Origin: Candidatus Woesearchaeota archaeon
GTDB lineage: Archaea > Nanobdellota > Nanobdellia > Woesearchaeales > GW2011-AR4
Direction: 5' to 3'
Assembly (NCBI GenBank): GCA_023266475.1
Contig: JAHFQA010000003.1
Location: forward strand, 1-50,985
DNA length: 50,985 nt
Below the pieces are notes generated by a model. That model was not told where the DNA came from. It did not search any database and was given only the letters and a program-made list of their open reading frames with translations. Of this stretch, positions 696-50,985 are shown piece after piece. Positions within the stretch are counted from its first letter, which is position 1. Every line of letters begins with the position of its first letter. Both the position numbers and the translations under genes were made by a program.

Positions 696-1640
696 TTAAT
701 TCTTATTGATGAATTTTTCCTCAAGTGCTTTTCTTAACTTGTCACCGATAAATTGGCCATGAAAGAAATCAACCTTGGCAGCAATTGAGATTTTGTCTGC
801 TAAGGCCCTTGCAATTTTCCCATGCATCATTTCGGCTGACTGCGCTATCAATGGATGGCCAACTATGATGCCATGCCTTGGCGGCTTTGCGCCTGTTTTC
901 ATATGCCTGAATAAGGCCTTTTCTGCACCCAAAATCTGGATTGTGGAAGAGGGCATTTCGCTAAGCCTTTTCAGGCTTCCAGCGTGTTCAATCAATTTTG
1001 AACCTATCATAACATCACAGACAGCCTTTATGTTTGGACATGATTTATCCATTAGGCTCGAGATGTAATCCAATTGGCTTTTTCTTAAATTGTACAAATC
1101 TTGAATTTGATGAGCTATATTTTTAATTGGTTGCAAGTCTTTTTCACTTAAATTAGCGCCGATAGAGCCGTTTTCGTCAATGCCCAATTTTTTTAGCAGC
1201 TCATGTTTTTCATTTGCAAGAATTTCCTGTACAAACAATTCATGGCTTTGAATCGACCTTGAGTATTCGGGATTGTACAGGTCATACCATTCCCTCAGCC
1301 GTTTTACAAGAATATTTATTGATTTGTCAATGTCTCCAATGAAATTAACGGATTGTGCGATAAAATTGTCATTATTCACCGAATTTTTAACATTTAACTT
1401 GGCCAGCTGAAGGTTTTTATCATAAAAATTGCCCAAGAATTCCTTATTTTTAAAATAGTTAAGGATATTTTTTATAGCAGTTTCGTCAGGCTCTTTTAAA
1501 TTTTTATGCTTATTAAGAAGTTTATCAATAAATTTTTCCTTATTATTATATTCCTCCAAATCCTTGAATAATATTTCATCCTCTACTTTAAATTTCTCAT
1601 CAAAAACAAAAACCCCAAGTACGTTTGAAAACAGGTACAT
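696..1640 (-). CDS. nop5: Nop56/58 (Nop5) box C/D snoRNP protein
   Basis: C-terminal Nop domain motifs (LGAEKALFRHMKTGAKPPRHGIIVGHP, HGKIARALADKISIAAKVD). Sits directly upstream of fibrillarin. Confidence 0.9.
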   Translation of the reverse strand: MYLFSNVLGVFVFDEKFKVEDEILFKDLEEYNNKEKFIDKLLNKHKNLKEPDETAIKNILNYFKNKEFLGNFYDKNLQLAKLNVKNSVNNDNFIAQSVNFIGDIDKSINILVKRLREWYDLYNPEYSRSIQSHELFVQEILANEKHELLKKLGIDENGSIGANLSEKDLQPIKNIAHQIQDLYNLRKSQLDYISSLMDKSCPNIKAVCDVMIGSKLIEHAGSLKRLSEMPSSTIQILGAEKALFRHMKTGAKPPRHGIIVGHPLIAQSAEMMHGKIARALADKISIAAKVDFFHGQFIGDKLRKALEEKFINKN

Positions 1641-48757: not shown

Positions 48758-50985
48758 ATGAAAAGAACCCATACCTGCGGTGAATTATCAGCTAAAGATA
48801 TAAACAAAAAAGTAGCTCTTTGCGGTTGGTGCTCTACTAGAAGGGACCATGGCGGAGTTATTTTTATAGACTTAAGGGACAGGTATGGAATTACTCAAAT
48901 TGTTTTTGATCCAAGCAATGACATGCCCAGCCATAAGATTGCAGAAAATTTGAGAAGGGAAGATGTAATAATTGTCCAAGGCATTGTTAGGAAAAGGCCG
49001 CAAGGTATGGAAAATGAAAGGGTGCAAACTGGCCAGATAGAGGTTCTTATCAATAAAATTCTAACAGTCAACAAAGCGCAGACGCCCCCTCTGGAGATTG
49101 AAGACAGAATTGAGGCTTCTGAAGAAGTTAGGCTAAAATACAGGTATCTTGATTTAAGAAGGCCAAAGATGCAGAAGCAATTGATCTTCAGGCATGAAGT
49201 GGCAAACGCCATAAGGGAATATTTCAATGAAAATAAATTTGTTGAGATTGAAACTCCTATGTTAATCAAAAGCACTCCAGAAGGGGCAAGGGATTATCTT
49301 GTTCCAAGCAGAATTCACTTAGGCAATTTTTATTCATTGCCGCAGTCACCCCAAATCTACAAGCAAATTTTAATGATAGCTGGATTTGACAGGTATTACC
49401 AGTTTGCAAGATGCCTTAGAGACGAAGATTTAAGGACTGACAGGCAGCCTGAGCATACTCAAGTTGATGTAGAGATGTCGTTTGCTGATGTCGAAGACAT
49501 ATTTCATCTTACAGAAGGATTGATCAAGCATGTTTTCAGGAAGGTTCTTAACAGGGATGTAAAGATTCCATTCAAAAGATTTACCTATCTTGAGGCAATG
49601 GAAAAGTTCGGCACTGACAAGCCAGATATAAGGTTTGGCATGGAATGCTGTACAGTAACAGAAATAGTTCAAAAATCAGAGTTTAAGGTTTTTCTTGATG
49701 TTGTTAAGAAACAAGGGGTTGTCAAAGTTCTCAATGCTGAAGGATGCGGAGAAAAATTAAGCAGAAACCAAATTGATGAATTGATTGAGTTTGCGAAACA
49801 GAATGGCGCACAAGGGTTAGCTTGGATGAAGGTTGCAAAAAATCACGCACTTGAAAGCAATATCGCCAAATTTTTCCAACTTGATGTGCAGAAAAGGCTA
49901 ATTGAAATTATAAACGCAAAGCCAGGAGATTTGCTGCTATTTGCTGCTGACAAGCCAAAGATTGTCAATGAGGTTCTATCTCGAATAAGATTAAAATTAG
50001 GCCATGAGCTGGAAGTTATAAAGGATGATTTTACATTCTGCTTTGTTACTGATTTTCCGATGTTTGAATGGAATGAGGATGAGCAAAAGTGGGACTTTGG
50101 CCACAATCCATTTACAATGCCAAAAGAGGAAGACTTAAAATATTTAGAGACGTCACCTGAGAAAGTATTCTCATACCAGTATGATTTTGTCATGAATGGC
50201 TCTGAGTTATTTTCAGGCTCTGTTAGAAACACCATACCGGAATTGCAGGAAAAAACGTTCAAAGTTACTGGTTTATCTAAGGATCAGATACAAGAAAGAT
50301 TTGGGTTTTTGCTTGAGGCATATAAATATGGGGCGCCAAGCCATGCCGGATTCGGATTGGGGTTTGACAGGCTGGCTTCTCTAATGCAAGGAATACATGA
50401 CATAAGGGAGGTTATAGCTTTTCCAAAGAACAAATCTGCTCAAAACCCAATGGACGGCTCCCCAAGCGAAGTGAGCGAAAAACAATTGCAGGAATTGCAC
50501 ATTAAGTTGGATTTTGTAAAAGAAAATGTAAATGTCGTTTTTACCAAAATTAGGGATGTTTTAAATAAGGAAAAAATTGAATATGAAGTGATTGAGCACA
50601 AGCCAGTTTTTACAAGCAAAGAGGCAGCTGAAGTTCGAGGAACAGAGCTGAAGCAAGGATGCAAGGCATTGGTTTGCAAGACGGAAGAAGGGTTTATTCA
50701 GGCAGTTGTTTCAGGTGCAAGGGAACTGGACATGGGGAAGCTGCAAGGATTAACATTGTTCAAGAAAATTGAATTAGCTGACGCAAAAGAAGTAAGAAAA
50801 GTAACTGGATGCAATATTGGAAGCGTTCCTCCATTCGGAAACCTCTTTGATTTAAAAGTTTATTTCGACAAATCAGTTGTCGAGAATGAGATTGTGGCTT
50901 TTAATGCAGGGCAGCATACAAAAAGCATAAAGATGAAGGCAAAGGATTTAATTAGAGTTGTGAATCCGGTTGTTGGGGAGTTTTC
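48758..50985 (+). CDS. aspS: Bacterial-type aspartyl-tRNA synthetase fused to a C-terminal YbaK/ProX-like (tRNA_edit) domain; 3' end outside the window
   Basis: Not in the ORF track because no stop falls in the window. My translation from the ATG at 48758 is continuous. It shows an OB fold, motif 2 (FARCLRDEDLRTDRQPEHTQVDVEMSF), a GAD insertion (FGTDKPDIRFG), HNPFTMP and motif 3 (GFGLGFDRLASLM). After ...QELHIKL comes a ~150-aa YbaK-like domain (GCNIGSVPPFG). Confidence 0.9.
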   Translation, partial: MKRTHTCGELSAKDINKKVALCGWCSTRRDHGGVIFIDLRDRYGITQIVFDPSNDMPSHKIAENLRREDVIIVQGIVRKRPQGMENERVQTGQIEVLINKILTVNKAQTPPLEIEDRIEASEEVRLKYRYLDLRRPKMQKQLIFRHEVANAIREYFNENKFVEIETPMLIKSTPEGARDYLVPSRIHLGNFYSLPQSPQIYKQILMIAGFDRYYQFARCLRDEDLRTDRQPEHTQVDVEMSFADVEDIFHLTEGLIKHVFRKVLNRDVKIPFKRFTYLEAMEKFGTDKPDIRFGMECCTVTEIVQKSEFKVFLDVVKKQGVVKVLNAEGCGEKLSRNQIDELIEFAKQNGAQGLAWMKVAKNHALESNIAKFFQLDVQKRLIEIINAKPGDLLLFAADKPKIVNEVLSRIRLKLGHELEVIKDDFTFCFVTDFPMFEWNEDEQKWDFGHNPFTMPKEEDLKYLETSPEKVFSYQYDFVMNGSELFSGSVRNTIPELQEKTFKVTGLSKDQIQERFGFLLEAYKYGAPSHAGFGLGFDRLASLMQGIHDIREVIAFPKNKSAQNPMDGSPSEVSEKQLQELHIKLDFVKENVNVVFTKIRDVLNKEKIEYEVIEHKPVFTSKEAAEVRGTELKQGCKALVCKTEEGFIQAVVSGARELDMGKLQGLTLFKKIELADAKEVRKVTGCNIGSVPPFGNLFDLKVYFDKSVVENEIVAFNAGQHTKSIKMKAKDLIRVVNPVVGEF

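What the first reader, a model, noticed from the sequence alone, without database searches (positions are those of the whole stretch)
48758..50985. Bacterial-type AspRS in an archaeal context, fused in frame to a YbaK/ProX-like trans-editing domain
The ORF is absent from the supplied track because it runs off the window. It encodes a full bacterial-architecture AspRS including the GAD insertion domain (FGTDKPDIRFG...), whereas archaea normally have the shorter archaeal/eukaryal type. After the usual C-terminus (...AFPKNKSAQNPMDGSPSEVSEKQLQELHIKL), the frame continues without a stop from about 50530. The added ~150 aa read IEYEVIEHKPVFTSKEAAEVRG...KALVCKTEEGFIQAVVSGARELDMGKL...VTGCNIGSVPPFG...VYFDKSV. 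This matches the YbaK/ProX/ProRS-INS editing fold. I am not aware of an AspRS carrying this deacylase domain. It could proofread mischarged tRNA or act on Asp-tRNA(Asn) if the enzyme is non-discriminating.
Basis: partly seen in the sequence, partly recalled or inferred. Interest (0 to 1): 0.6.

Follow-up and report, generated by a model that had tools for sequence, protein, structure and literature searches.

The report
AspRS fused to YeaK-type proofreading domain
This tiny DPANN archaeon makes its only aspartyl-tRNA synthetase, an enzyme class thought to need no proofreading, as one protein with an intact YeaK-type tRNA-deacylase domain, and relatives keep that domain fused or adjacent to the genes that make Asp- and Asn-tRNA, which points to a quality-control step I found described in none of the papers searched.

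Summary
The ORF starts at 48758 and runs off the contig. A 121-nt perfect overlap with contig C55 adds two codons and a stop, giving 744 aa. Pfam finds an OB fold, a class II core, a GAD insertion and tRNA_edit (PF04073, 1.3e-30).

The fusion is not an assembly artefact. More than 120 protein clusters of 740-745 aa from independent Woesearchaeota/Nanoarchaeota assemblies share it.

The added domain is closest to E. coli YeaK (ProXp-ST1), not to YbaK proper. Its catalytic Lys and GXXXP motif are invariant, and it is as conserved as the synthetase core.

Bacterial-type AspRS is normal here: 90 of 101 families sampled in this order have it. This copy carries the RDHGG signature that tracks GatCAB use. 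The genome has gatCAB and no detectable AsnRS, so the enzyme is probably non-discriminating.

In relatives the same domain clade is a separate gene abutting aspS, sometimes in an aspS-yeaK-asnS operon. It is also fused to other AspRS backbones, and a diverged branch is fused to GatB.

The linkage holds for both discriminating-like and non-discriminating-like AspRS. This favours editing of AspRS amino-acid errors over simple Asp-tRNA(Asn) clearance. The substrate is unknown.

I found no paper describing this architecture. This scan has already found the same fusion on at least 15 other genomes.

The parts
48758..50985 (+). aspS::yeaK-like fusion gene. 742 codons lie in the window; the last 2 codons and the stop lie on contig C55 (L002 minus strand, 1494..1619).
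48812..49060 (+). N-terminal OB-fold anticodon-binding domain (aa 19-101). It contains the R29-D30-H31-G32-G33 motif at 48842-48856 and a long G-M-E-N loop.
   Evidence: Pfam PF01336. The motif was checked. It tracks GatB-positive, AsnRS-negative genomes at 41 of 43, against 1 of 30 in GatB-negative, AsnRS-positive genomes.
49118..50434 (+). Class II (IIb) catalytic core, tRNA-synt_2 (aa 121-559), interrupted by the GAD insertion.
   Evidence: NF001750 scores 826 bits and TIGR00459 scores 761 bits, both far over their cut-offs.
49691..49978 (+). GAD insertion domain (aa 312-407), the hallmark of bacterial-type AspRS.
   Evidence: Pfam PF02938, 4.4e-25
50432..50533 (+). AspRS C-terminal tail plus the 8-residue junction DFVKENVN (50510-50533). 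This stretch has low confidence in the full-length AlphaFold model.
   Evidence: pLDDT is below 50 for residues 559-590. The junction maps onto the stop/start boundary of the split aspS | yeaK-like genes in G044 and G037.
50534..50983 (+). YeaK/ProXp-ST1-like aminoacyl-tRNA editing domain (aa 593-742). The Pfam tRNA_edit match covers 50597-50956.
   Evidence: The domain model has pLDDT 94.7. Foldseek TM is 0.80-0.86 to 3op6, 2cx5, 1dbu and 1wdv. phmmer gives 73.6 bits to E. coli YeaK.
50663..50665 (+). Codon of K636, the conserved catalytic lysine of the INS superfamily.
   Evidence: Invariant in the 30 fused homologues and in the 71-sequence family alignment
50819..50833 (+). GSVPP, the GXXXP loop of the INS superfamily (G688-P692).
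   Evidence: G688 and P692 are invariant

Best explanation
The gene encodes a 744-aa bifunctional protein. It joins a bacterial-type, probably non-discriminating, AspRS to a catalytically intact aminoacyl-tRNA deacylase domain of the YeaK/ProXp-ST1 branch of the INS superfamily, through a short tail. The fusion most plausibly arose when two abutting genes (aspS, then the yeaK-like gene) lost the intervening stop; that split arrangement survives in related families. Proposed mechanism (inferred): AspRS binds tRNA(Asp) and tRNA(Asn) through its anticodon-binding domain. This brings their acceptor ends within reach of the tethered deacylase. The deacylase hydrolyses a wrong aminoacyl group placed on these tRNAs, probably after release and rebinding, as in other class II systems. 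It would thus act as a proofreading module dedicated to the Asp/Asn charging system. Shown here: the architecture, its conservation, the intact active-site motifs, the family placement and the genomic linkage to aspS, asnS and gatB. Inferred: the hydrolytic activity and the tRNA targeting. Unknown: the amino acid removed. It could be a small polar residue such as Ser or Thr, as for YeaK, or another near-cognate of Asp.
For: The architecture holds and is shared by more than 120 independent clusters. The editing domain has mean pairwise identity 0.64, equal to the OB fold and above GAD at 0.54. K636, G688 and P692 are invariant. The nearest characterised relative is E. coli YeaK. phmmer gives 73.6 bits to YeaK, against 62.9 for 3op6, 48 for ProXp-x, 30 for YbaK and 20 for ProXp-ala. 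hhalign gives probability 99.9. YeaK, all fused forms and all adjacent forms share a clade with SH-aLRT 96. Of 24 members of this clade in 101 sampled families, 12 are fused to aspS and 6 abut it, with a 1-nt gap or a 4-nt overlap. The domain is also fused to GAD-less bacterial-type AspRS and to archaeal-type AspRS, and a diverged branch is fused to GatB in 19 clusters. asnS lies in the same operon or within a few kb in G037, G044, G003, G042, G061 and on the P0305 contig. G071 and G050 carry this fusion as well as a ProRS with its own INS-type domain, so the domain is not simply the ProRS-error editor.
Against: No biochemical data exist, and AspRS is not known to need post-transfer editing. 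Free-standing proteins with the same active-site signature occur without any aaRS neighbour, for example P0162, so the catalytic specificity predates the link to AspRS. Only about a quarter of the families in the order carry the clade. The main fused group is one clade, so its 12 genomes count as one event. The relative position of the two active sites is not predicted, because the linker has pLDDT below 50. The pocket positions T619, S620 and H720 differ from YeaK, so Ser/Thr specificity cannot be assumed.
Confidence: 0.55

Rival explanations
1. The domain is a generic, broad-specificity trans-editing factor, like YeaK, which clears Ser- or Thr-tRNAs made by several synthetases. It is merely co-expressed with, and then accidentally fused to, a neighbouring housekeeping gene. 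AspRS would add nothing to its targeting.
For: YeaK/ProXp-ST1 has broad tRNA specificity (review PMC11295145). Free-standing relatives with the same signature are common and lie in unrelated contexts. This is the only PF04073 domain in the genome. The linker looks flexible.
Against: Fusion or adjacency to AspRS recurs on three different AspRS backbones, and a related branch is fused to GatB. Chance neighbourhood does not predict repeated linkage to the same pathway. Eighteen of 24 clade members in the order sample are physically joined to aspS or abut it.
Confidence: 0.25
2. The domain is an Asp-tRNA(Asn) deacylase. It would be a hydrolytic safety valve that removes un-amidated Asp-tRNA(Asn) escaping from the ND-AspRS/GatCAB route before it reaches the ribosome.
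For: No AsnRS was detected in the genome. A gatC-PPIase-gatA-gatB cluster lies about 4.4 kb downstream. The AspRS carries the RDHGG signature that tracks GatCAB use. All 12 fused genomes have GatB and 10 of 12 lack AsnRS. A related domain is fused to GatB. Misincorporation from Asp-tRNA(Asn) is a documented risk (PMC3367201; PMC2330236).
Against: Asp-tRNA(Asn) is the obligatory intermediate here, so cis-hydrolysis would be a futile cycle. The same clade, with the same active-site signature, abuts discriminating-like AspRS in AsnRS-only genomes without GatB (G003, G037, G080) and occurs unlinked to aspS in G031, G063 and G084. The domain would also have to tell tRNA(Asn) from tRNA(Asp) while both carry Asp.
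Confidence: 0.12
3. The domain is a non-hydrolytic acceptor-end binding module. It would hold or hand over Asp-tRNA(Asn) to GatCAB, acting as transamidosome glue for a GAD-containing AspRS.
For: It is linked to both AspRS and GatB, and the gatCAB cluster lies nearby.
Against: The full catalytic set (Lys, GXXXP) is invariant. Members of the clade also occur in genomes without GatB.
Confidence: 0.05
4. The fusion is an assembly or gene-calling artefact, and two separate genes exist in reality.
For: The window ends inside the gene. NCBI lists several stand-alone 'YbaK/EbsC family' proteins at about 80% identity.
Against: More than 120 independent assemblies give the same 740-745 aa frame. Two of those stand-alone proteins (P0132, P0136) were checked, and the DNA behind each holds an intact 743 or 745 aa fused ORF. 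The contig join is supported by conserved synteny.
Confidence: 0.01

Closest known systems
E. coli YeaK = ProXp-ST1, a free-standing Ser-/Thr-tRNA deacylase of the INS superfamily
   Same: It is the best characterised sequence relative: 32% identity, BLASTP 2e-26, phmmer 73.6 bits. It falls in the same clade with SH-aLRT 96. It shares the E-[VI]-R-G-T-x-L-x-Q-G-x-K-A-L-V-C-K block (x = any residue), the GXXXP loop and the FNAG block.
   Different: YeaK is a single-domain protein acting in trans with broad tRNA specificity. Here the domain is the C-terminus of AspRS. The pocket positions T619, S620 and H720 are K, C and L in YeaK, so the amino-acid specificity may differ.
ProRS INS domain and the N-terminal ProXp-ala-ProRS fusions of Plasmodium and Trypanosoma
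   Same: These are the described cases of an INS-superfamily editing domain built into a class II synthetase (PMC11295145, PMC11286415). In T. brucei, fusion raised deacylation about 5-fold over the free domain.
   Different: The partner is ProRS (class IIa), with a known error (Ala). The domain belongs to the INS or ProXp-ala branches, which are much more distant here (28 and 20 bits).
Legionella pneumophila lpg1207 (PDB 3OP6), and T. thermophilus ProX/ProXp-x (2CX5, 2Z0K)
   Same: These are the nearest solved structures: Foldseek E 8e-14 and 2e-13, TM 0.80-0.85; phmmer 62.9 and 48 bits.
   Different: Both are free-standing. 3OP6 is uncharacterised, and ProXp-x acts on Abu- and Ala-tRNA. Both lack R627 of the present family (alignment).
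Bifunctional AspRS-GatC (NCBIfam NF009460)
   Same: It is a bacterial-type AspRS with a C-terminal fusion to a partner of the Asn pathway.
   Different: The appended part is GatC, not a deacylase. The present protein scores 569 bits against a cut-off of 1379, so it is not a member.

Membership tests
Bacterial-type AspRS (TIGR00459 / NF001750) | Whole-protein score over the curated equivalog cut-off | tested here: met
   NF001750 scores 826 bits (cut-off 443) and TIGR00459 scores 761 bits (cut-off 374)
Bacterial-type AspRS (TIGR00459 / NF001750) | GAD insertion within the catalytic core | tested here: met
   PF02938, residues 312-407, 4.4e-25
Non-discriminating AspRS | Genome lacks AsnRS and has GatCAB | tested here: met
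   The only PF00152 protein in the genome is this one. gatC, gatA and gatB lie on C55. The genome is 88% complete; its 98%-complete family mate G015 shows the same pattern.
Non-discriminating AspRS | Charges tRNA(Asn) with Asp | not testable with these tools
   There is only an indirect marker. The RDHGG motif with the long loop occurs in 41 of 43 GatB-positive, AsnRS-negative AspRS and in 1 of 30 GatB-negative, AsnRS-positive AspRS.
INS / YbaK superfamily (PF04073) | Profile match over the cut-off, and the YbaK fold | tested here: met
   106 bits against 25.5. The model has pLDDT 94.7, with TM 0.80-0.86 to 3op6, 2cx5, 1dbu and 1wdv.
INS / YbaK superfamily (PF04073) | Conserved catalytic Lys and GXXXP loop | tested here: met
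   K636, G688 and P692 are invariant in 30 fused and 71 family sequences
INS / YbaK superfamily (PF04073) | Hydrolyses mischarged aminoacyl-tRNA | not testable with these tools
YbaK proper (Cys-tRNA(Pro) deacylase, TIGR00011) | Score over the equivalog cut-off | tested here: not met
   79 bits against a cut-off of 153; PRK10670 gives 32 against 243
ProXp-ST1 / YeaK | Groups with E. coli YeaK to the exclusion of other INS families | tested here: met
   YeaK gives the highest phmmer score among characterised members. The 63-row clade has SH-aLRT 96, with YbaK, ProRS-INS and the other paralogues outside it.
ProXp-ST1 / YeaK | Free-standing single-domain protein | tested here: not met
   The domain is fused to AspRS
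ProXp-ST1 / YeaK | Ser-/Thr-tRNA specificity | tested here: inconclusive
   Most motif blocks are shared, but T619, S620 and H720 differ from YeaK (K, C, L)

The most novel reading that the evidence does not exclude
AspRS, and perhaps AsnRS, in genome-reduced symbionts makes a physiologically relevant aminoacylation error. A dedicated YeaK-derived editor, recruited repeatedly by fusion to AspRS and to GatB, corrects it. This would be the first post-transfer editing system of a class IIb synthetase. In the GatB form it would be a hydrolytic checkpoint built into the tRNA-dependent asparagine pathway.
Probability: 0.3. Interest if true: 0.8.

Novelty: new variant of a known kind. Interest (0 to 1): 0.62.

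Why it matters
No dedicated post-transfer editing domain is described for the class IIb synthetases (AspRS, AsnRS, LysRS), as far as I know. The 2024 review of editing lists INS-superfamily members as single-domain proteins apart from ProRS. A conserved, apparently active deacylase built into AspRS, with a sister fusion on GatB, implies an unrecognised error source at Asp/Asn codons. It also bears on an open question raised in PMC2330236: what keeps misacylated intermediates of indirect pathways out of proteins? The system is directly testable with recombinant protein and would extend the known substrate range of the INS superfamily.

Tried and rejected
(1) tRNA(Asp) and tRNA(Asn) acceptor stems could not be examined. 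ARAGORN and Rfam RF00005 recover only about 20 tRNAs in this MAG, many with introns, and neither Asp nor Asn is among them.

(2) Stand-alone YbaK proteins at about 80% identity looked like a split form. The two checked (P0132, P0136) are annotation artefacts over intact fused ORFs.

(3) The idea that the domain is the missing editor for the INS-less archaeal ProRS was downgraded. G071 and G050 carry this fusion as well as a ProRS with its own INS-type domain.

(4) The idea that it compensates a non-discriminating AspRS in AsnRS-only genomes was tested and not supported. Those AspRS lack the RDHGG signature.

(5) Six of the nine literature searches looked for the fusion (AspRS + YbaK + fusion + archaea; Woesearchaeota + AspRS; 3OP6; bacterial-type AspRS + DPANN; ProXp-7/8/9; GatB + YbaK + AspRS). 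None found a paper on it.

(6) The primary ProXp-ST1 paper could not be read under the id I tried. What I say about YeaK activity rests on the review read.

(7) My recollection that H31 and G83 of Pseudomonas aeruginosa ND-AspRS govern tRNA(Asn) recognition could not be verified. I rely on the internal cross-tabulation instead.

(8) The ESM Atlas feature search gave only generic PF04073 clusters, with scores of 0.79 or less.

(9) The bacterial donor lineage of the AspRS core was not pursued.
Full report
OBSERVATION. The window is a whole contig (C19) of a 1.32-Mb, 80-contig, 88%-complete genome. One frame is open from 48662 to the last base. The start supported by homologues is the ATG at 48758. 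The consensus of 30 full-length relatives and the TIGR00459 match both begin there.

Pfam gives tRNA_anti-codon 19-101, tRNA-synt_2 121-559, GAD 312-407 and tRNA_edit 614-733 (1.3e-30). NCBIfam gives the bacterial aspartate--tRNA ligase equivalogs at 826 and 761 bits.

The last 121 nt of the window are identical to the end of contig C55. C55 adds two codons (S, K) and a stop, so the protein has 744 residues. The join agrees with the synteny seen in two related MAGs: Translin, then the fused gene, then Ham1, gatC, a cyclophilin and, where the locus extends far enough, gatA and gatB.

THE FUSION IS REAL. A search restricted to the C-terminal 158 residues, among proteins of 408-1299 aa, returned 137 hits. 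All of the best 120 carry PF00152 plus PF04073. Most are 740-745 aa, and those that are named come from Woesearchaeota or Nanoarchaeota MAGs.

The apparent stand-alone versions at about 80% identity are annotation artefacts, at least for the two I checked. The DNA behind P0132 and P0136 holds intact 743-aa and 745-aa fused ORFs.

Within 30 fused homologues the editing part has mean pairwise identity 0.64. That equals the OB fold (0.64), lies within the range of the catalytic core (0.57-0.67) and exceeds GAD (0.54). The junction varies in length by at most one residue.

Invariant residues in the editing part include K636 and G688/P692 of the GXXXP loop. H614, T619, S620, R627, G628, Q633, G634, D704, F715, N716, G718, H720 and S723 are also invariant.

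WHAT THE ADDED DOMAIN IS. A domain-only AlphaFold model (pLDDT 94.7) matches the YbaK/INS fold. TM is 0.80-0.86 to 3op6, 2cx5/2z0k, 1dbu and 1wdv.

By sequence it is not YbaK proper. TIGR00011 gives 79 bits against a cut-off of 153. On a common phmmer scale the scores are:
- E. coli YeaK (ProXp-ST1): 73.6 bits
- Legionella lpg1207 (3OP6): 62.9 bits
- T. thermophilus ProXp-x (2CX5): 48 bits
- YbaK: 30-35 bits
- ProRS INS: 28 bits
- ProXp-ala: 20 bits

BLASTP to YeaK gives 32% identity and 2e-26. A 71-sequence family profile matches YeaK at probability 99.9.

In an 88-row tree rooted on YbaK, a 63-row clade with SH-aLRT 96 holds E. coli YeaK, every AspRS-fused form, every aspS-adjacent form, the GatB-fused group and many free-standing proteins. 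Three other groups of free-standing proteins from the same order fall outside it, as do a ProRS-fused domain and the ProRS INS domains. These outside groups co-occur with clade members in the same genomes, so they are paralogues.

YeaK/ProXp-ST1 is described as a Ser-/Thr-tRNA deacylase with broad tRNA specificity (review PMC11295145). The present family keeps most YeaK motif blocks. It has T619, S620 and H720 where YeaK has K, C and L.

CONTEXT IN THE GENOME. This is the only tRNA-synt_2 protein found in the genome. The second, weak match is HisRS. It is also the only PF04073 domain.

No AsnRS was detected. A gatC-cyclophilin-gatA-gatB cluster lies about 4.4 kb downstream on the joined contig. 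A second GatB_N/GatB_Yqey protein of 470 aa, possibly GatE-like, lies on C50. ProRS is of the archaeal type and has no INS domain.

CONTEXT IN THE ORDER. I sampled 101 genomes, one per family.
- Bacterial-type AspRS scores over its cut-off in 90 of 101, and in 6 of 11 genomes from other orders of the class. The 'bacterial enzyme in an archaeon' is therefore an old trait of the lineage.
- PF04073 occurs in 41 of 101 genomes.
- Twenty-four genes belong to the YeaK-like clade, not counting the GatB-fused form listed below.
- Twelve of these are fused to aspS: nine complete, and three cut by a contig end or by a frameshift.
- Six are separate genes immediately downstream of aspS.
- Six lie elsewhere in the genome.
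- One genome (G073) has a diverged member of the clade fused to the N-terminus of GatB. That GatB fusion is conserved in 19 clusters of 615-709 aa.

In G044 the aspS stop and the yeaK-like ATG are 1 nt apart. In G037 the two genes overlap by 4 nt, and asnS follows 57 nt later.

The fused junction maps exactly onto this boundary. It consists of the AspRS end (...ELHIKLD), the residues FVKENVN, and then the first helix of the YeaK fold. Loss of the stop between abutting genes is therefore the likely origin.

The main fused group forms one clade, so it counts as one event. Fusions also exist on GAD-less bacterial-type AspRS (P0286, P0305), on a divergent GAD-type AspRS (P0278) and on archaeal-type 'aspartate--tRNA(Asn) ligase' (P0219, 508 bits against a cut-off of 353). 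The contigs of P0219 and P0278 look bacterial: both carry a D-Ala-D-Ala carboxypeptidase gene next to the fusion, and the P0219 contig also carries RecJ.

PATHWAY CROSS-TABULATION. AsnRS is found in 54 of 101 genomes, GatB proper in 60 of 101, and both in 16.
- All 12 fused genomes have GatB, and 10 of them lack AsnRS.
- All 6 adjacent-gene genomes have AsnRS, often within a few kb of aspS. Only 2 of them have GatB.
- The P0305 lineage has a fused gene with asnS 1.2 kb downstream.

I then extracted the N-terminal 135 residues of 92 further AspRS genes. With the window's own, this gives 93. The motif R29-D30-H31-G32-G33, together with a long G-[ML]-x-N-P-K-L loop (x = any residue), is distributed as follows:
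- 41 of 43 AspRS from GatB-positive, AsnRS-negative genomes
- 12 of 17 from genomes with both
- 1 of 30 from GatB-negative, AsnRS-positive genomes

The window's enzyme has the RDHGG motif and the long form of the loop (GMENERV). The sampled genomes are related, so these counts are not independent. Even so, the motif is a usable internal marker of non-discriminating status.

Importantly, six GatB-negative genomes carry the YeaK-like clade. It abuts aspS in G003, G037 and G080 and lies elsewhere in G031, G063 and G084. All six have the other, discriminating-like form of AspRS. The active-site signature of the domain is the same in fused, adjacent and free members. The GatB-fused branch differs at about eight signature positions.

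MECHANISM. Three things are shown: an intact deacylase-type domain of the YeaK branch, selection on it as strong as on the synthetase core, and repeated physical linkage to aspS, and more loosely to asnS and gatB. The rest is inferred.

The best-supported reading is a proofreading module aimed at tRNA(Asp) and tRNA(Asn) by the AspRS body. It would remove a non-cognate aminoacyl group (confidence 0.55).

Because linkage to AspRS holds for both the ND-like and the D-like enzymes, an error of amino-acid selection by AspRS fits better than clearance of Asp-tRNA(Asn). Clearance would also be a futile cycle in this genome (rival, 0.12).

A generic trans-editor fused by accident remains a serious rival (0.25). 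Free-standing relatives with the same signature are widespread and sit in unrelated contexts. The full-length model gives no information on the mutual orientation of the two domains, because residues 559-590 have pLDDT below 50.

NOVELTY. The searches of 8.4 million full texts that looked for an AspRS-YbaK/YeaK or GatB-YbaK fusion found no description of one. [quoted passage not shown] Public records name these proteins simply 'aspartate--tRNA ligase'.

After reaching the conclusions above, I consulted earlier notes of this scan. The same fusion has been reported at least 15 times on other genomes: DPANN archaea, Patescibacteria, Dojkabacteria and environmental chlamydiae. Several of those reports also name YeaK as the closest known relative. 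The notes agree with my results, but they are not independent evidence.

- the order-wide cross-tabulation with AsnRS and GatB;
- the RDHGG marker, which shows that the linkage is independent of discriminating status;
- the mapping of the fusion junction onto surviving split operons;
- the finding that the GatB-fused branch has a diverged active-site signature.

Noticed in passing
L055:1064-2917 (-), G073 contig C51; proteins P0187-P0205: A tRNA_edit domain is fused to the N-terminus of GatB (618 aa). It is conserved in 19 clusters of 615-709 aa. The host genome has an unfused AspRS 3 kb away and no other PF04073 domain. Its active-site signature differs from the AspRS-fused form.
   Followed up: partly
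L042:956-2941 (-), G071 contig C139: A 662-aa protein has an N-terminal tRNA_edit domain fused to an archaeal-type ProRS. This is the architecture known from Plasmodium and Trypanosoma ProXp-ala-ProRS, found here in a DPANN archaeon that also has the AspRS fusion.
   Followed up: partly
L014:2813-5044 and L015:4180-6417 (GCA_030745935.1, GCA_035288865.1): The gene tables for these two NCBI MAGs list only the last 138-151 codons as a 'YbaK/EbsC family protein'. No gene is listed over the AspRS part, although one intact 743/745-aa ORF is present.
   Followed up: yes
order sample, e.g. G018:C8:4377-5732, G020:C31:9604-10938, G001:C31:2384-3730: About a dozen families carry a bacterial-type AspRS of 440-510 aa that lacks the GAD insertion (model positions 2-291 and 423-583 only).
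   Followed up: no
P0280, P0283; contigs of P0219 and P0278 (L086:11309-12391): A tRNA_edit domain is fused to a D-Ala-D-Ala carboxypeptidase (Peptidase_S11). In two probably bacterial contigs, a Peptidase_S11 gene directly follows the aspS::edit fusion.
   Followed up: no
P0206 (448 aa), P0215 (491 aa), P0343 (411 aa): Other architectures occur in the same domain family: proteins with three tandem tRNA_edit stretches, and a tRNA_edit + DksA-type zinc finger + BON protein.
   Followed up: no
L013:7083-7619 (-), contig C55; also L014 and L015: A cyclophilin-type peptidyl-prolyl isomerase gene sits between gatC and gatA. The arrangement is conserved in related MAGs.
   Followed up: no
whole genome G000: Only about 20 tRNA genes are recoverable, and most have introns. 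One (C61:5406-5509) is called with a CTA anticodon by ARAGORN at relaxed settings, which is probably a miscall.
   Followed up: no
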